From assembly GCF_009914755.1 (NCBI RefSeq), contig NC_060935.1: 64,000 bases of DNA, one strand, 5' to 3'. The position numbers and the translations under genes are program-made. The stretch's first letter is position 1. Each line of letters opens with the position of its first letter. The DNA is from the human T2T-CHM13v2.0 reference genome, Homo sapiens. Below, piece after piece: positions 4,646 to 15,485 of the stretch. The notes under the pieces are model-generated. The model had not been told where the DNA came from, made no database searches, and saw nothing but the letters and a program-made list of their open reading frames with translations.

Positions 4646-6399
4646 CTGAGGATGGTGAGATATTCGACAATTTGTTTAGTCCTCACTTTCTCTAATACAG
4701 CTGAAGCCTTCATTTTCAAGTCTCCAGGTTTCCTAAAGATAATCTATCTTCAAAATGCATGACATCAGGGTAGGATGCATTATCTGATATAGGAGCATCT
4801 ACTGTTTTATTTGCAGTTGTTTGGAATAGCATGCTTGTTCCTTTGGGAGGGAAGATGATCTCCCCAAGAATCCCAAGAACAAAAATCCGGGGCAGTGGCT
4901 CTAGTCCTTCAGGCCCCCCCCCTCCCCAGGCCCCCTGTCTTGTTTTCCTAAGCAATGGTCAGGAATGTGGGGCGGGGGGCAGCCCAGCCCTCTGTGCCCA
5001 GCCCAGGCAGCCCCAGTCACAGTCCCAGGCTGGCCTTTCACCTCATTGCTCTCCCGGCTGCTCTTATTAAGCAGCAAAATGTTTCAATATGTGGAACTCT
5101 GGGGGAGGGATGGGAGAGAAAAATCGGGATATTGTTGAGAAGGAAATAACGAATAACCCTGCCGCCAGCCCTCATACCCCCCACGTGGGGAGATCTGGAT
5201 GATAGGTGTGTTTTCTCCTGAAATGGAATCCTACTAATTGCCTTTTGGTCAGAAATGTCCAGAGCCAATTGGGGAAGGGGGTAGGGGGAGCAGGTACTAA
5301 ATAAATTTTCTCGAAGGTTCCAGAGCAAAGCAGTCAGGGATCTGGGTACCCAAGAAGGAAGGAAGAGAACGCTTGAGAAACAGAAGCCAACTCAGAGTGG
5401 TGCAGGAAGCTGTGGGGTTTGCTTTTGCTAACTGACATACTCCCATCTCCATCCTTACCTGTCACCTCTCCCCTGCCACCCTGCCCCCCCCCCCCCCCAC
5501 ACCCAGGTTAGAAACAACTGTGAACAACTCCCTGTTGCCAGAGATCCACAGAGGAGAGTGAGGGGTGGGGTGCCGCCCACCCCAAAGCACAACCAACTCA
5601 GCAATGCAGATTCTATTTTGTGGGTAATGGCCCTGGGATTGGGCAGTGGAAAGGGCCCATATGAGCATTGACTCAGAAATCTGAGCCCCATTCGAGTGAA
5701 AGAATGAGCAACGTTCCAAATTTTAAGAAAACACAAATTTGACAACCCAGAAACAACTCCTTAACAAGAATGCTTTTAAATGTTTGAGGTTTTTTAAATT
5801 AAAACCTCATAATATGGCTATTTCTATGGCATTTGCAATCCACTTTGCTCTTATAGATACTGCCTAGAAAAAGTGGATCAAGAAGAGGTGTATTCTCGGT
5901 GGTGGTTGGGAGGGCGGGCGCAATAGGACTCAATAAGGGGAAGGAGTAACCCTTACGAAAGAAAAACATAAGGGCTCAAAAAGTAAAAGATAACTTCACC
6001 GATATCAAGTTTGAGGAATGATTACTTGCATATCGATAATTTGGAACTTTCAAAGAATAAATAATCAGCTCAAAGAAGCCTGGGTCTGCATGTCTTCTTT
6101 TGGCTTCGCTTAGTTGTATGTCTTTATTTATGATATGCGTTCATGATTTCTAGCGTTCTTTAAAGTTTCCTAGTAACACCGAGTGGTTTCTAGAAAAGCA
6201 GCTGGGGGCAAACTGGTGGCTGTCCTGTAAGAATAATTCATCAGACAGCAGTTGGAATATTGATAAGAAAGCGGAAATCAAATTACAAGAAAGGGAAAGA
6301 GAAAGGAAGAGGGAGTGGGACCCAGAGAGCTGGCGGGAGGCAGCGAAGGGGAAAGCTTCAGTGCACGCATAGCTCCTGCACAGCGGCTCCTGCAGCCCC

Positions 6400-6600
6400 C
6401 CAGGATGCGCCTGAGCTGAGGCTGCTTGTGGGCAGGCCCTAGAGAGAGGCAAACTTTGACTCCAGGCACGCAGCAGGTTTAACTCCTCACTGGCTGGGTT
6501 CTGGGAGCTCTGGGCACACAGGATAGGCACCAAGAACTAACACATCCTGGAGCTGCCCGGAGTTCCGCTCCTGCGGGCTTAGCAGGAAAGGGTGCCTAAG
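6400..6600 (+). other. FLI1: Putative distal non-coding first exon of FLI1 (start approximate)
   Basis: Perfect donor AAG|gtgagt at 6600/6601 at the edge of a CpG-rich region. It is the natural partner for the acceptor at 7852, with GATA/ETS motifs upstream at 6249-6277. Confidence 0.55.
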
Positions 6601-7890
6601 GTGAGTGCCCACTTGCGTCCGATCCTCTGGGGGCGATGCAGGGTCGGGGCGCCTCAGTGTGTCTCGCTGCTTGTTCTGGTTGCAGTCGGGAAATGTGGGA
6701 CTTTGGGGTCTCCTCCTTTCTCCGGCTTTCTTTTTTCTCCTTCTTTCCTCTCTGTTTTCTTGTAAATTACACTTCGACTTTCAAAAAAAAAAATGTAGGG
6801 GACCGGTGGGGTCGCTGGGGTTGGGGGAGAGACTGAAGAAAGTGCGCCTGGGCGGAGGCGGCGAAGGGAATCTCTGGGCCCGAGGAATATACCTTGTCCC
6901 TGCACTAGTGTGTGTTCTCTTGTGGCTTCAGGAGCCAAAAAAAAAAAAAAAAAAAAAAAAAAGCTGGAATTTGTTAGTGGGGAGAAAAGTGCTTTATCAG
7001 AAACACATTGGCTGCCAGAGAAGCTGTGAGCCGCCACGTTAAAGATGGTTAAGAGAAGGAAGGAAAGGAAGAGGAGAGATACGGCCGCCAGACTGGGCTA
7101 AGTCAGGGAGAGACCCACTCACGCAGAGGCACCTGGCAACCTAGGGTGGCTTTTGCGCCTTCCAGCCCAAATTATCAGACCTAAGTAAGACTCTCCTGCC
7201 ACTAAAAATGAGGACCTGACAGTCATTGTAGCAGTCTCTTCCCAAAAACCTATTTTCTAAGGGGCCTCCACAGACCTCCCTAACCTTGCGTTAGTCTTCC
7301 TCCGTCCCCGGGCCACCAGCAGGGAAGAGCAGCGCAGCTGGATGCTGGCAGAGAAAGGGTGGTGAGGAAGTCAAGCAGGTCTGTGCACTGAGGGGCGAGT
7401 GTTGGCAGCTCTGTAAGCTTCTGCTCCTCAGCCTGCAAGAAAGGGGAGTCCTACCTCTGTCCTGGTCGCGTTCTCTCCTCAACACGCACCAAGAACTAGA
7501 ACATCCTGGTTTCCAGAACAAGCTGCGGGCATCCCCAGTTCGAAACTGCCCAGGCCCTGGGGGAGGCGGCAGTCTGATTTCGGGCAGGGGAGAGTAAAAG
7601 GACTGTAGGGAGGAGACCCAATGGTGTGAGGTGGCTCTCAGTTCTCACCGTCCCCTGGCCTGAAGCCCGGGGACGGGACTGAGGCGTAGGGAGAGTGCTC
7701 AACACCCAACCACTCGGACCCTCCCTCGCCGGACTAGGCGGATCTGAGCTTCCCAAACCCCTACAGTCTCTCCATCTGCATCCCCACTTCATCACCATCC
7801 CACCGTCTCTCCCTCGCTCCACTCGCGGGTAACCGAGGCTTCTCCCTCCCAGGCTGGTTCTTGGGCGTTCCCGACCCTTAGCTACCCACG

Positions 7891-7929
7891 ATGTTTCAGA
7901 CAGTCCCCGACACGTCGTCTTACATCAAG
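7891..7929 (+). CDS. FLI1: Putative alternative first coding segment of FLI1 (MFQTVPDTSSYIK), paralogous to ERG MIQTVPDPAAHIK; exon 7853-7929
   Basis: Acceptor cttctccctcccag ends at 7852. In-frame TAG at 7879-7881, then cccacgATG with A at -3, 13 codons, and donor AAG|gtaaga in phase 0. 8/13 identity to the recalled ERG N-terminal peptide. Confidence 0.75.
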
Positions 7930-10039
7930 GTAAGACATGGCAGCGTCTTTAAACAGGTGATGACCCCCAGCTTCTACCCCACCCGGGCCTATGGTCCCTT
8001 TTCCCTTTCCCCGGGAAAAAGGGGTAGGGGTGGAAGTGGGCCCTACTCTCGGCTCGTGGATCTCAAGCTAGGGCGCTCCTGGCCAGATGAGAGTGGCACA
8101 GACCCTCGGGAATCCTAGGTTGAGAAGCAACGCTCCTGGCGGCTAGTGTTTGGGAAACTTGGAGCAGGAGAGCCTGGCGAAGCCTGTGCAGGAAGACCGA
8201 GCAGCTCGCCGCGTCAGGTCCCAACGGGTGGGGTGCTCTGAGCGGCTGGCGCACAGCGTGTTCCCTGCATTAAGCGCGTGCGCGCGCTTGTGTGTGAGCG
8301 CGTCTGTGCATGTGTGCATGCGTGCGCCTGTTTGCATGTGGGCGTGTGTATGTGGGGTTGTGTGCGGGTATGCGGGCGCCACGCGCTTCTCCTACAGGTG
8401 AGACACGCGCTCAGTCCTCGAGCCCACCTTCTTTGGCCCCGCCCGCCCTTCGGAAGCGCAGATTGCTATATTTGACAGCACATCGAAGGGTTTTGGTTTT
8501 TTTTTTTCTTTTCCACAACAGTTTCCAAGAATGTAAACAAACTGAAGCTGGGACACCTGGGTTACAAGTTAAATGAAAATCCGCTGGCTGGGTGGGGCGG
8601 GGAGTGCGCACCAGGAGGCCCTGCTCATGGGAGGGGCGGTGACTGGGTCCCCTCACGCCATGCAGCCGCGACCTGACGCCCTCCGAGTAGGGACCCAAAG
8701 CTTAGGACCATCTGAGTCAGTCCGAGAGCGGAGGAGGAAGGACTCTCCGCAGTGCTGCAAACACCCGCATACTTTTCCCAGATCTCTGCCCCGCCCTCCC
8801 CATCCTGAAGCCCCGCCTCCAAGTGCTCCCCAGACCGGTCAGTGAGGCCCAGCTGAGCTCCCTCGAGTGTCGGGCAAATGCCAGGGCAGTCCCTGGCCCT
8901 GTGTGATGGGATGCAGACTCTCGGGTCCTGTCCAAGGATTGCCAATTATGCGTCCAACCCTCCTCAGATCTCTCTAAAGGAAAACTTGTCACACGGACGC
9001 ATCTTCCCGTGTGAAGCAGTCACTCGTCATTTCAGGAAGGGAAGGCCTAATCCTAGAGGCTTGGCCCAAAAAGGGGTGTTTCATTGACAATGCCTGAGTG
9101 AGTGAATGAATGAATGAAATACAGTGTAATTCATGTAGCAATAACCAGTGAATGGATGGATAGCAAAATGACTCCCAGGAGGTTACAGAGCATACTTTAA
9201 GGTTAGACTAAGGCGCGCACGGATTCGCTGTCCCCAGTTTTCCTGAGAAGTTTAGGAAGAGTACTCGGGTACTCCCACCACTCGGAGTACCCGAGCCCGG
9301 CAAGAGGAGCTCTCACTTCTAGCTCTGCACTGAGGATTGTAAATGGCCCCGGGGAGGGGAGCTGCAGTCTCTCTCCCACTCATAGGAACCCTCGAGTCCA
9401 TACACACCCCGGGACCCAGGACCTCAGGGATGAGGAGCCCTAGAGGGGCACGTGGGAGCCCCGGAACCCGACTCAGGCCACGGGTCAGGGACAAAGCGGA
9501 GGCGAGGAGACGGCAGTCTGGGAGCTGTGGGCCGCCAGAGAAGCTGCTCGCTGCAGGAGCTCTTTTCAAGGTGGAAAAATGGATTTTTCAGCAGCCACAA
9601 AGTTTGTATTGTTGCACAAAGGGGTGCATTGATGGCGGCGAAAGGTCTGCGTGGCAGGGACAATCTTGAGTCTGTTCCACCGGCTCCCTCCATCGAACAT
9701 TTGCCAGAGGGGCACAAACAGTTGCAGGCTGCCAAGCCCCTGCCGTTGTCCGGCAGGCACCCGGCTCAGGAGTTGTTGACAAACACCGCAGGCCCAGGCG
9801 CCCAGGCCCCATGAGGGAGGAGCCCAGCCTGGCCCCTAGGGGCCAAGGGTGCCGGCTCCACCGGGGTCACGATCTGAACAGTGGTCTGGGCTCTGAGGGG
9901 TCCCACAGAGAGGTAAAGGAGGTAATTGCCCACATAAGAGCGCTTTAGGTAGGAAAGGGGCAGGGAAGAACAAGGGAAAGGGAGAGAGGGAAGAGGGTGA
10001 CACTTGGAGACACTGACATGCAGTAGTTGATGGATAACC

Positions 10040-13699: not shown

Positions 13700-14028
13700 C
13701 AATTGCTGGCAGGCTGCACCCGCCACTCCAGGTCTGGTCACGTTCAGACCCGTGTCTGTATTCGAACCCAAAATTGGAGCCGAATTGATGAGACTAATTT
13801 CTAGAGAGGGAGGGGGAGGGAGGGAGACGAGTGAGCTCTCGGGCTCAATTGCTCCTGAAGAAATAAAGAATTAATAAGTCACCTTTTTTCGCCTCTGTGG
13901 ACACCCTTTTGAAATTTTTTCTTCCAATTGACTTGGATCTCCTCTGGATTTTTTTTCCCTCTTTCCCCCGTCGGACTCTTAAATAAAAGTGAGCAAGTCC
14001 AAAGCGTGGTCCGGAGAGCGTGGACAAG
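13700..14028 (+). other. FLI1: Putative alternative non-coding first exon of FLI1 (exon 1b-type; would give the N-terminally shorter isoform); start approximate
   Basis: Donor AAG|gtaacc at 14028/14029. In-frame TGA at 13990-13992 with no ATG between it and the donor. Position fits a recalled alternative FLI1 first exon about 1.5 kb upstream of the ATG. Confidence 0.55.
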
Positions 14029-15166
14029 GTAACCTGTTTTGGATGTCCGGGAGAAGGGAGTCCGGCCGAAAGGGCCCAGCCCCTCGAGGCTGCTCCAACT
14101 GGGGCGCGCGGCGGCCCAGGAGGGAGGCGGGGAGGTCTCCGGGTTGGGCCGGGGAACGCCGGCCTCCAGGCTGGGTAGGGAGGACGGTCCAGAGCGCGGG
14201 CCTCCGGGTCTCACCCCGGGAAAAGTCTGGGTCTGCTCTGCGCTGTTGCGTGCTGCGCTCCTGGGACCTGCTGACTGTCCTAGAGGGAACGTCCCGCGGT
14301 AGTGTCAGTTCCCTGGGGACCAGGAAGGGCGACTCTTGCCTGGGAGTCAGTGCTTGGGCCGTCGGGTCCGGGTAAGCGCTGGGGGTTTGGCTCGAGAAGA
14401 TGCGGATAGGTGGCCTAGGGCGCCGCGGATCTCCGCCCTCTGCGGGCACCGGGAGCCCAGGGTCGAGGCGCGCCGCCCCGAGGGGCCCCTTCTCCTAACA
14501 ATGCGCCCGGAATGGAGTCCGCGCCCTGACAGCGCGGGTCAGCCCGAAACCGCCCAGAATCCGCTTCGATGAGTGGGTGAGCCGCTCTGGGAGTCTGCCG
14601 CGTCTCGGCAGCGGAGGGCCTGAGTGGAAAAATTCTTATTGGATGCACTTTTTAATGGTTGGTTTGCCTCGGTTTTCGTCCGAGTCTTCCCCGGCAGTAG
14701 GCGCTGGGTTACCCGCAGCCCTAGCCAACTCTCCCTCCATACCCCCCCTACCCCACCCCCAAAAAGTTTGTCTCCGGCTGGAAAAAGCATTAATGAACGT
14801 ATCTGTGGGAAGAAACGGAAAGTGAATGAGTCAGGAGGGCCACCTTCGGCCAACCGCCTCAGGAAAAGCAAAGAAGCCAAAGGTCTTTGGCTTTGGATTT
14901 TGGGGGAAGGTGATGGGGGGAGGTTCAGACTTCGGGAATCAGGGCGCGGACGCTGGGCGTGGACCCCGTCATTGTTCCCGGCTAGCTCTTATCTCCCAGG
15001 AGCAAGTATCCTGTGTGCGCAGCGCATGAATGTGTCTGGGCATCTCCGCGTATATTTATATAGTGTGTGATGCGAAAAGCAGGACCAGCAGGGGAGGAAG
15101 AGGGGGTGTGGGGGGGAGGGAAGACGAGGGAGAGCAGAGGGGAGAGAAGAGAGAGGAGAGCTCGAG

Positions 15167-15426: not shown

Positions 15427-15485
15427 ATGTGTGGAATATTGGGGGGCTCGGCTGCAGACTTGGCCAAATGGACGGGACTATTAAG
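15427..15485 (+). other. Overlapping uORFs of FLI1 mRNA (AUG -41 running into exon 2; GUG -37 ending at UAA +15)
   Basis: ATG at 15427-15429 and GTG at 15431-15433, both out of frame with 15468. The GTG frame closes at TAA 15482-15484. Matches the known conserved Fli-1 uORF arrangement. Confidence 0.85.
15468..15485 (+). CDS. FLI1: FLI1 canonical first coding exon portion (MDGTIK), phase-0 splice into exon 2 outside the window
   Basis: ATG GAC GGG ACT ATT AAG followed by the consensus donor gtaagc at 15486. Matches the recalled FLI1 N-terminus MDGTIK|EALSVVSDDQ. Lies in a CpG island downstream of the GA repeat typical of the FLI1 promoter. Confidence 0.96.

What the first reader, a model, noticed from the sequence alone, without database searches (positions are those of the whole stretch)
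7853..7935. Hidden ERG-like coding first exon: FLI1 may encode an alternative N-terminus MFQTVPDTSSYIK
Seen: a 77-nt exon with a polypyrimidine/AG acceptor (7852) and an in-frame TAG 12 nt before an ATG with A at -3. It has 13 codons and a strong AAG|gtaaga donor in phase 0, the same phase as canonical MDGTIK|gtaagc. Known (recalled): the paralogue ERG has two mutually exclusive N-termini, MIQTVPDPAAHIK (upstream exon) and MASTIK (downstream exon), both spliced to the EALSVV exon; FLI1 is normally credited only with MDGTIK. The peptide here has the same length, 8/13 identity, the same splice phase and the same genomic order as the ERG one. Inference: this exon predates the FLI1/ERG duplication and is still under coding constraint. 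It would give a ~459-aa FLI1 isoform (452-6+13) from a separate promoter. I know of no characterisation of it, but it may appear in predicted gene models or be annotated as 5'UTR.
Basis: partly seen in the sequence, partly recalled or inferred. Interest (0 to 1): 0.9.

Follow-up and report, generated by a model that had tools for sequence, protein, structure and literature searches.

The report
Ancient alternative FLI1 coding first exon
About 7.6 kb upstream of the usual FLI1 start lies a real, very old alternative first coding exon that swaps the first 6 residues for an ERG-like 13, but public annotation already holds this exon, so it is little studied rather than undiscovered.

Summary
ATG 7891 opens 13 codons (MFQTVPDTSSYIK) that end at a phase-0 donor, AAG|gtaaga (7929/7930). 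An in-frame TAG sits 12 nt upstream and A is at -3.

It is not hidden. RefSeq already lists an exon 7763-7929 with this donor (hub table), and 7891 is its only ATG. FLI1 exon 2 has a phase-0 acceptor.

A degenerate pattern for the shared residues hits the human genome twice, here and at ERG exon 3. ERG has the same exon order.

Among 120 listed FLI1 relatives, 41 carry MFQTVPDT(S/A)SYVK joined to EALSVV, from sharks to xenarthran mammals. Tunicate Erg starts MTQTVPDTSAYVK. So the N-terminus predates the FLI1/ERG split and is under coding constraint.

A second in-frame donor 27 nt downstream (7956/7957, adding VRHGSVFKQ) is also conserved in models of other vertebrates.

Not shown here: human junction reads, translation from this ATG, or any function. 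In ERG the equivalent ATG was bypassed in transfected HeLa cells.

Verdict: real biology, already in databases, modest interest.

The parts
7763..7929 (+). Alternative FLI1 first exon as annotated by RefSeq in non-selected transcripts (167 nt): a 128-nt leader plus 13 codons
   Evidence: Hub annotation table. 7763 is preceded by 'ct', not AG, so it is a start-site-type exon. The only ATG in it is 7891.
7851..7852 (+). Candidate internal 3' splice site (AG after the pyrimidine run cttctccctccc). Its use is untested.
   Evidence: It aligns with the acceptor region of ERG exon 3. In some sharks and teleosts, predicted models extend the reading frame upstream of the MFQTVPD methionine (P0125, P0126, P0141, P0153, P0154).
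7879..7881 (+). In-frame TAG that closes the frame 12 nt upstream of the ATG
7891..7929 (+). Coding part: MFQTVPDTSSYIK, ending on a complete codon (phase 0)
   Evidence: It is 12 of 13 identical to the commonest vertebrate FLI1 form, 8 of 13 to human ERG and 10 of 13 to Ciona Erg.
7930..7935 (+). Proximal 5' splice site, AAG|gtaaga
   Evidence: It is the 3' end of the RefSeq exon (hub table). It matches 8 of 9 positions of the MAG|GTRAGT consensus (consensus recalled).
7930..7956 (+). 27-nt in-frame extension (VRHGSVFKQ) that would be included if the distal donor is used
   Evidence: 24 of 75 MFQTVPD-type representatives carry a 9-residue insert at this place (VRHDSIFKQ, VRHDSVFKQ, VRHHRLFDQ and others). 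Human is 8 of 9 identical to armadillo P0057.
7957..7962 (+). Distal candidate 5' splice site, CAG|gtgatg, phase 0
   Evidence: It is weaker than the proximal site (7 of 9 consensus positions). It is not in the human RefSeq rows of the hub table.
6360..6600 (+). Further upstream alternative FLI1 first exon with donor AAG|gtgagt. It is a possible splice partner of 7853 and has one 4-codon uORF (ATG 6405).
   Evidence: Hub table.
15468..15485 (+). Canonical first coding segment MDGTIK|gtaagc, the mutually exclusive alternative, 7577 nt downstream
   Evidence: hub table (coding 15468-15485).

Best explanation
7763-7929 is an ancient alternative first exon of FLI1 with its own promoter. A further start site lies at 6360. 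Its only AUG (7891) opens 13 codons that end in phase 0 and splice to the phase-0 acceptor of exon 2 (EALSVV..., 71 kb downstream, outside the window). The result is a 459-residue FLI1 in which MDGTIK is replaced by MFQTVPDTSSYIK.

It is the orthologue of the exon that gives ERG its MIQTVPDPAAHIK N-terminus, and of the N-terminus of tunicate Erg. It is therefore probably the ancestral N-terminus of the Erg subfamily, and FLI1 has kept it closer to the tunicate sequence than ERG has. A second in-frame donor 27 nt downstream can add 9 residues.

Shown: the sequence anatomy, frame compatibility, paralogy, exon order and protein-level conservation. Inferred: that human cells make the 7929-to-exon-2 junction, that ribosomes start at 7891, and that the peptide has a function of its own beyond letting a second promoter drive FLI1.
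For: Anatomy
- ATG, 13 codons and the phase-0 donor are in place.
- 7891 is the only ATG in the annotated exon.
- Exon 2 begins cag|GAGGCTCTG (E A L S) in phase 0 and is 212 nt long.
- RefSeq lists exon 7763-7929 (hub table).

Paralogy with ERG
- The shared-residue pattern has 2 genome-wide matches, this site and chr21 ERG.
- ERG exon 3 is 86 nt with donor AAG|gtaagt.
- The ERG MASTIK exon gives a unique pattern hit 77.8 kb downstream of it.
- ERG exon 4 (EALSVV, 218 nt) lies further downstream.
- FLI1 and ERG coding parts share 29 of 39 nt. Of the 13 codons, 6 are the same, 2 differ synonymously and 5 non-synonymously.

Orthologues
- The exon-2 query found 189 proteins at E<=0.001 among 217 candidates.
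- Of the best 120 listed, 23 read MFQTVPDT(S/A)SYVK|EALSVV, 18 have 9 extra residues, 24 read MDGTIK, 24 are partial, 27 are other and 4 start inside exon 2.
- With the second search (114 proteins at E<=0.001 among 116 candidates), 75 of 156 distinct representatives carry the peptide. 71 are exactly MFQTVPDTSSYVK and 4 have A at position 9.
- These include sharks, rays, bichir, sturgeon, gar, teleosts, coelacanth, lungfish, a caecilian, lizards, turtles, birds, sloth and armadillo (names).

Outgroup
- Clavelina and Ciona Erg begin MTQTVPDTSAYVKEALSLV.
- Two unnamed representatives carry NVVPDPSVY(A/P)QE.
Against: - No human RNA junction, ribosome-profiling or mass-spectrometry evidence could be reached with these tools.
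- No human protein record with this N-terminus was seen. Clustering at 90% hides it if it exists, because the large mammalian cluster is represented by P0005, which has a different N-terminus.
- The hub table does not say whether RefSeq annotates 7891 as a start codon.
- Most orthologue rows are automatic gene models, which can be seeded by homology. They do still require an intact ATG, frame and donor in each genome.
- The second search was seeded with the motif, so 75 of 156 is not a frequency.
- In ERG, the equivalent exon-3 ATG was not used when native ERG-1a/1b cDNAs were expressed in HeLa cells. Translation began at the first exon-4 ATG because of a weak context and uORFs (PMC3589450, passages read).
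- FLI1's ATG also lacks G at +4.
- Human has I at position 12, whereas all 75 representatives have V.
Confidence: 0.85

Rival explanations
1. The exon is transcribed and spliced, but in human cells it acts mainly as an alternative promoter and leader. Ribosomes largely skip AUG 7891 and start at the in-frame methionine in exon 2 (KADMTASGS), as reported for native ERG-1a/1b mRNAs, so little or no 459-residue protein is made.
For: ERG exon-3 ATG was not used in HeLa transfections. It was used only after the leader was replaced by an optimal Kozak context (PMC3589450, passages). FLI1's ATG has A at -3 but T at +4. Exon 2 carries an in-frame ATG.
Against: Thirteen residues kept identical in 71 of 75 representatives, and 10-11 of 13 kept against tunicates, are hard to explain unless the peptide is translated somewhere. 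The leader from 7763 has no upstream ATG, and the one from 6360 has only a 4-codon uORF. ERG exon 3 carries an overlapping out-of-frame ATG 22 nt before its start, and Zammarchi reports three uORFs in the ERG-1b leader.
Confidence: 0.1
2. The exon is a functional coding exon in other vertebrates but a decaying relic in humans, transcribed only as noise or as part of the antisense lncRNA LOC101929538.
For: Human differs from all 75 representatives at position 12 (I for V), and from armadillo in the extension (G for D). The lncRNA exon 7455-8150 on the minus strand covers it (hub table).
Against: ATG, frame, both donors and the stop-free extension are intact in human. V to I is a conservative one-base change, and ERG also has I there. 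RefSeq annotates plus-strand FLI1 transcripts that use the 7929 donor (hub table).
Confidence: 0.04
3. It is a chance open frame in a conserved non-coding element (promoter or enhancer), and the resemblance to ERG is coincidental.
For: RefSeq functional-element rows flank it: enhancer 7316-7455 and silencer 8213-8412 (hub table).
Against: The pattern is unique genome-wide to the two paralogous positions. Phase and exon order are the same in both genes. There are synonymous differences at conserved residues. The peptide is conserved at the protein level as far as tunicates.
Confidence: 0.01

Closest known systems
ERG exon 3 N-terminus (MIQTVPDPAAHIK; ERG-1a/1b transcripts, UniProt ERG 'isoform 2' as named in PMC8345871)
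   Same: Both have 13 codons, a QTVPD core and a terminal IK, with 8 of 13 residues identical. Both have a phase-0 donor, are joined to the EALSVV exon, lie upstream of the short alternative first coding exon (MASTIK / MDGTIK), and are driven by separate upstream promoter(s).
   Different: ERG's exon is internal (86 nt, preceded by exons 1a/1b and 2, per PMC3589450). It carries an out-of-frame upstream ATG. FLI1's is annotated as a first exon of 167 nt with no upstream ATG. The distance to the short exon is 77.8 kb in ERG and 7.6 kb in FLI1. ERG has no in-frame second donor 27 nt downstream. ERG's peptide is further from the tunicate form (8 of 13, against 10 of 13 for human FLI1).
Tunicate Erg N-terminus (Ciona intestinalis P0306, Clavelina lepadiformis P0177)
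   Same: The protein begins MTQTVPDTSAYVK, followed directly by EALSLV...SLFD. That is 11 of 13 identical to the common vertebrate FLI1 peptide.
   Different: It comes from a single pre-duplication gene. Its exon structure was not examined because no tunicate genome was at hand. The residue after Met is T rather than F.
Predicted FLI1 'isoform X' models of other vertebrates in NCBI/UniProt
   Same: They have the same N-terminus joined to the same exon, for example P0049 (sloth), P0022 (softshell turtle), P0026 (coelacanth) and P0124 (shark).
   Different: They have V rather than I at position 12. They are mostly automatic models, and no human record was seen.
'Fli-1b', a human FLI1 transcript from an alternative exon 1b and promoter (Dhulipala et al., Oncogene 1998; recalled from memory, paper not held)
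   Same: If my recollection is right, it describes an alternative 5' exon and promoter of human FLI1 spliced to exon 2.
   Different: I could not read it, so I cannot say whether its exon 1b is this exon or one of the others (6360-6600, 13711-14028, 14290-14371).

Membership tests
ERG-exon-3-type alternative coding exon of Erg-subfamily ETS genes | ATG followed by 12 codons with the xQTVPDxxxx(I/V)K signature | tested here: met
   MFQTVPDTSSYIK against MIQTVPDPAAHIK, 8 of 13 identical. The pattern is unique to the two loci in the genome.
ERG-exon-3-type alternative coding exon of Erg-subfamily ETS genes | Phase-0 GT donor directly after the K codon, compatible with the phase-0 acceptor of the EALSVV exon | tested here: met
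   AAG|gtaaga. FLI1 exon 2 acceptor is cag|GAG GCT CTG.
ERG-exon-3-type alternative coding exon of Erg-subfamily ETS genes | Lies upstream of the short alternative first coding exon (M..TIK), which lies upstream of the EALSVV exon | tested here: met
   FLI1: 7891, then 15468, then window-equivalent 79297. ERG, minus strand: 36959475, then 36881690, then 36829063.
ERG-exon-3-type alternative coding exon of Erg-subfamily ETS genes | Conserved as coding sequence in orthologues | tested here: met
   75 of 156 FLI1 representatives carry it, 71 with an identical 13-mer. This was tested at the protein level only; no DNA of other species was available for dN/dS.
ERG-exon-3-type alternative coding exon of Erg-subfamily ETS genes | The exon-to-exon-2 junction is present in human mRNA | not testable with these tools
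   No RNA data were available. The hub table shows only that RefSeq transcripts use the 7929 donor.
ERG-exon-3-type alternative coding exon of Erg-subfamily ETS genes | Translation starts at this ATG | not testable with these tools
   No Ribo-seq or mass-spectrometry data were available. The ERG precedent is negative in HeLa cells.
Tandem alternative 5' splice sites (in-frame micro-extension) | Two GT donors in the same phase, a multiple of 3 apart, with no stop codon between them | tested here: met
   7929|gtaaga and 7956|gtgatg are 27 nt apart and read VRHGSVFKQ.
Tandem alternative 5' splice sites (in-frame micro-extension) | Both donors are used | tested here: inconclusive
   Both forms occur among models of other species (51 proximal, 24 distal), sometimes in one genus: Mauremys P0014 against P0016 and P0027. 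The human RefSeq rows list only 7929.

The most novel reading that the evidence does not exclude
The MFQTVPDTSSY(V/I)K peptide is the ancestral N-terminus of the whole Erg subfamily, present in tunicate Erg, and the textbook MDGTIK start is a later vertebrate addition.

The peptide is a functional short motif in its own right. This could work through its conserved T-S-S-Y patch, or through a change in N-terminal processing class (Met-Phe against Met-Asp; classes recalled). Either would give the upstream-promoter isoform different stability or partners.

A conserved second donor 27 nt downstream toggles a 9-residue insert (VRHxSxFxQ) next to the motif. Neither the peptide nor the insert has been tested functionally.
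Probability: 0.3. Interest if true: 0.5.

Novelty: already known. Interest (0 to 1): 0.28.

Why it matters
FLI1 is a master regulator of endothelial, megakaryocyte and lymphoid programmes. It is also a disease gene for platelet disorders, lupus risk and leukaemia.

If the upstream exon is coding, variants about 7.6 kb upstream of the reference start can be start-loss, missense or splice variants of a real isoform rather than 'promoter-distal non-coding' changes.

Expression constructs, antibodies and knock-outs designed around MDGTIK and exon 1 may miss, or fail to disable, the isoform from the upstream promoter.

The evolutionary point is that FLI1 keeps the tunicate-like N-terminus almost unchanged while ERG has drifted. 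This suggests the 13 residues do something, and it gives a clean, testable handle.

None of this overturns current understanding. The same arrangement has long been described for ERG, and the exon is already in public annotation.

Tried and rejected
- The 13-residue peptide cannot be used as a protein query: it is below the 40-residue minimum (after an E-value slip). I used the exon-2 translation instead.
A 35-place version worked.

Literature (all 10 searches used)
- No paper holds 'MFQTVPD' or 'FQTVPDTSSYIK'.
- 'Fli-1b' occurs in 1 paper, and only as the name of a gel-shift band.
- 'Dhulipala' + 'Fli-1' found only an unrelated author.
- 'usage of differential splicing' gave 0 papers.
- Fli-1 + differential splicing + alternative promoter + Oncogene gave 0 papers.
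- FLI1 + 'exon 1b' gave 8 papers and FLI1 + 'alternative first exon' gave 16. From the listings none concerns FLI1's own 5' exons. I read passages of two.
- The first search was too broad to be useful.
- NM_001271010 is listed with an 'exon 1' amplicon 187 bp from its start, at hg19 coordinates close to where I recall (not checked here) the canonical exon 1 to lie (PMC5558660 table passage). It may therefore not be the transcript that carries this exon.
- The supplement of PMC12059137 lists 9-mers from ENST00000281428, but none from this peptide. This is uninformative, because only predicted HLA binders absent from the reference proteome are listed.
- Papers not held: Dhulipala 1998, a 2015 Fli-1 review and Sarrazin 2000.

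Other limits
- Cross-species DNA (PhyloCSF, dN/dS) could not be done. Only the human genome is held for this window.
- The promoter at 7763 is not a clear CpG island: GC is 0.57-0.61 and CpG observed/expected is 0.43-0.80 in 7400-7999.
- ORF listing on both strands found a 100-aa minus-strand ORF (7496-7798) and a 64-aa one (8143-8337), with no support sought. It also found the unspliced read-through of the exon's own frame (75 aa, 7891-8118).
Full report
**1. The observation**

- A pyrimidine run ends in AG at 7851-7852.
- TAG at 7879-7881 lies in frame with, and 12 nt before, the ATG at 7891.
- A is at -3 (7888).
- Thirteen codons read MFQTVPDTSSYIK. One search gives *LPTMFQTVPDTSSYIK.
- The donor AAG|gtaaga follows at 7929/7930, after a complete codon.

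The canonical start MDGTIK|gtaagc is at 15468-15485, also phase 0. The +4 base is T, so the start context is good at -3 only.

**2. Annotation**

The hub table lists, among exons of non-selected RefSeq FLI1 transcripts, 7763-7929.
- The starts of the other listed exons (6360, 13711, 14290) are also not preceded by AG.
- Each of those exons ends at a GT donor: 6600|gtgagt, 14028|gtaacc, 14371|gtaagc.
- 7891 is the only ATG in 7763-7929. Exon 6360-6600 has one ATG (6405), opening a 4-codon uORF.

Whether 7853 is also used as an acceptor, and whether RefSeq marks 7891 as the start, cannot be read from the table.

**3. Frame compatibility**

The window's genome is held. I fetched the 70 kb beyond the window and found FLI1 exon 2 at L005:5297-5508, window-equivalent 79297-79508.
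- The acceptor is ctgcag|GAG GCT CTG TCG GTG GTG (E A L S V V), phase 0.
- The exon is 212 nt long.

Joining either first exon keeps the frame. The upstream one gives 452-6+13 = 459 residues. The 452-residue MDGTIK forms are P0007 and P0045.

**4. Paralogy with ERG**

A 35-place degenerate pattern for the residues shared with the published ERG peptide (QTVPD, four free codons, IK, GT) has exactly two matches in 3.1 Gb: this site and chr21 minus strand. The backwards control has 0 and 1 matches.
- The chr21 site is ERG exon 3: tag|ccgtcagg...ATGATTCAGACTGTCCCGGACCCAGCAGCTCATATCAAG|gtaagt, 86 nt.
- The peptide MIQTVPDPAAHIK-EALS is quoted in PMC7493922, and MIQTVPDPAAH against MAST in PMC8345871 (passages).
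- A pattern for MASTIK plus a donor has a single genome match, 77.8 kb downstream in gene direction. Its control has 0 and 0.
- ERG exon 4 (EALSVVSED..., 218 nt, as stated in PMC7493922) lies 52.6 kb further on.

The order is therefore the same in both genes: long-peptide exon, short-peptide exon, EALSVV exon.

The coding parts share 29 of 39 nt. Six codons are identical, two differ synonymously (ACA/ACT, CCC/CCG) and five differ non-synonymously. The flanks align only loosely.

**5. Orthologues**

The 13-residue peptide is too short for the protein search, so I queried with exon 2 (70 aa, longer proteins). That gave 189 proteins at E<=0.001 among 217 candidates, of which the best 120 were listed.

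| N-terminus before EALSVV | Representatives |
|---|---|
| MFQTVPDT(S/A)SYVK directly | 23 |
| The same plus 9 residues | 18 |
| MDGTIK | 24 |
| Partial (2 or fewer residues) | 24 |
| Other | 27 |
| Starts inside exon 2 | 4 |

A second search used residues 1-40 of turtle P0022 and is therefore biased towards the motif. It gave 114 proteins at E<=0.001 among 116 candidates. Of its 36 new representatives, 34 carry the peptide.

In the union of 156 representatives, 75 carry the peptide: 71 as MFQTVPDTSSYVK and 4 with A at position 9. Named sources include:
- sharks, rays, bichir, sturgeon, gar and many teleosts;
- coelacanth, lungfish and a caecilian;
- lizards, turtles and birds;
- two mammals, sloth P0049 and armadillo P0057.

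Human differs by V12I.

Caveats:
- Most rows are automatic models.
- Clustering at 90% collapses most mammalian FLI1 proteins into a cluster whose representative (P0005) has another N-terminus. I saw no human record, and the absence of other mammals means nothing.

**6. Outgroup**

A full HMMER scan with P0022 gave 6095 hits at E<=0.001, of which the best 150 were listed. A motif scan of the 147 newly stored proteins found QTVPD in two of them.
- One is a FLI1 fragment (P0169).
- The other is P0177, which begins MTQTVPDTSAYVKEALSLV.

The last protein search named P0177 as ERG-like of the tunicate Clavelina lepadiformis. It also found Ciona intestinalis P0306 with the same 13 residues. That search gave 2 proteins at E<=0.01 among 170 candidates.

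Identities:

| Comparison | Identical of 13 |
|---|---|
| Common vertebrate FLI1 vs Ciona | 11 |
| Human FLI1 vs Ciona | 10 |
| ERG vs Ciona | 8 |

Two further unnamed representatives (P0184, P0182) carry NVVPDPSVY(A/P)QE after a longer N-terminal stretch. In P0184 this is followed by ALS.

Tunicates branch outside the vertebrate FLI1/ERG split (established knowledge). So the peptide predates the duplication, and FLI1 keeps the older form. Conservation at this depth is not what non-coding sequence shows, so this argues for coding constraint.

**7. A second donor**

Reading through the proximal donor gives VRHGSVFKQ, followed by gtgatg at 7957. That is 27 nt, in frame.

Twenty-four of the 75 representatives carry a 9-residue insert at exactly this place:
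- VRHDSIFKQ in turtles, kiwi and anole;
- VRHDSVFKQ in armadillo, 8 of 9 identical to human;
- VRHHRLFDQ, VRQHRHYEQ and others in teleosts.

Its first two codons are the proximal donor itself. Its last codon is the CAG before the distal donor. ERG has nothing comparable. The human RefSeq rows list only 7929.

**8. Mechanism and its limits**

The best reading is an alternative promoter and first exon whose own AUG gives FLI1 a different, ancestral N-terminus.

The main caution comes from ERG. Zammarchi et al. (PMC3589450, passages) found that the exon-3 ATG of native ERG-1a/1b cDNAs was not used in HeLa cells. Translation began at the first exon-4 ATG unless the leader was replaced by an optimal context, and they blamed a weak context and uORFs.

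The FLI1 leader from 7763 has no upstream ATG, which is more favourable. Its +4 base is not G. FLI1 exon 2 also has an in-frame ATG (KADMTASGS).

Deep conservation of the residues implies translation in at least some settings. Human use is nonetheless inferred, not shown. Any specific role for the peptide is hypothesis. Candidates are the T-S-S-Y patch, or Met-Phe against Met-Asp N-terminal processing classes (recalled).

**9. Novelty**

The exon is in RefSeq. The isoform is in NCBI and UniProt models of many species. ERG's equivalent is well described.

I recall, but could not read, an Oncogene paper of 1998 on 'Fli-1b' from an alternative exon and promoter. In the searchable library, no paper contains the peptide and none of the FLI1 5'-exon searches found a description. 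So the functional literature appears thin. Subscription journals are mostly not covered.

I rate it already known as a feature and modest in interest. The small additions are the tunicate link and the conserved 27-nt second donor.

Noticed in passing
window 7930-7962: A second in-frame donor (CAG|gtgatg) lies 27 nt after the first and would add VRHGSVFKQ. A 9-residue insert at this place is present in 24 of 75 FLI1 representatives, from teleosts to armadillo. ERG lacks it.
   Followed up: partly
P0068, P0080, P0081, P0089: Frog FLI1 representatives (Xenopus tropicalis, Pyxicephalus, Ranitomeya, Discoglossus) carry a different 11-residue N-terminus, MHLKKLVEHRK, before EALSVV. No frog representative with MFQTVPD was listed.
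   Followed up: no
P0005: The representative of the largest mammalian FLI1 cluster (1008 members, named after a Canis model, 460 aa) starts MTFQVLNYKPGDSGQ before EALSVV. This is yet another alternative first exon in some mammals.
   Followed up: no
window 6360-6600: The furthest upstream FLI1 first exon has a consensus donor AAG|gtgagt and a 4-codon uORF (ATG 6405, ATG CGC CTG AGC TGA).
   Followed up: partly
L003 1561-1563 (minus strand; ERG exon 3): ERG exon 3 holds an out-of-frame ATG 22 nt before its MIQTVPD start. This fits the uORF-based suppression reported for ERG-1b. The FLI1 exon has no counterpart.
   Followed up: partly
window 7455-8150 minus strand: The first exon of lncRNA LOC101929538 (hub table) runs antisense across the whole FLI1 exon. 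There are minus-strand ORFs of 100 aa (7496-7798) and 64 aa (8143-8337) with no support sought.
   Followed up: no
window 15468-15485 vs 7891-7929; alignment: MDGTIK and MASTIK align with the last residues of the 13-mer (...S-Y-V/I-K), both ending (I/V)K before EALSVV. The short exon might be a truncated duplicate of the long one.
   Followed up: no
window 7891-8118: If the intron is retained, the frame stays open for 75 codons from the same ATG.
   Followed up: no
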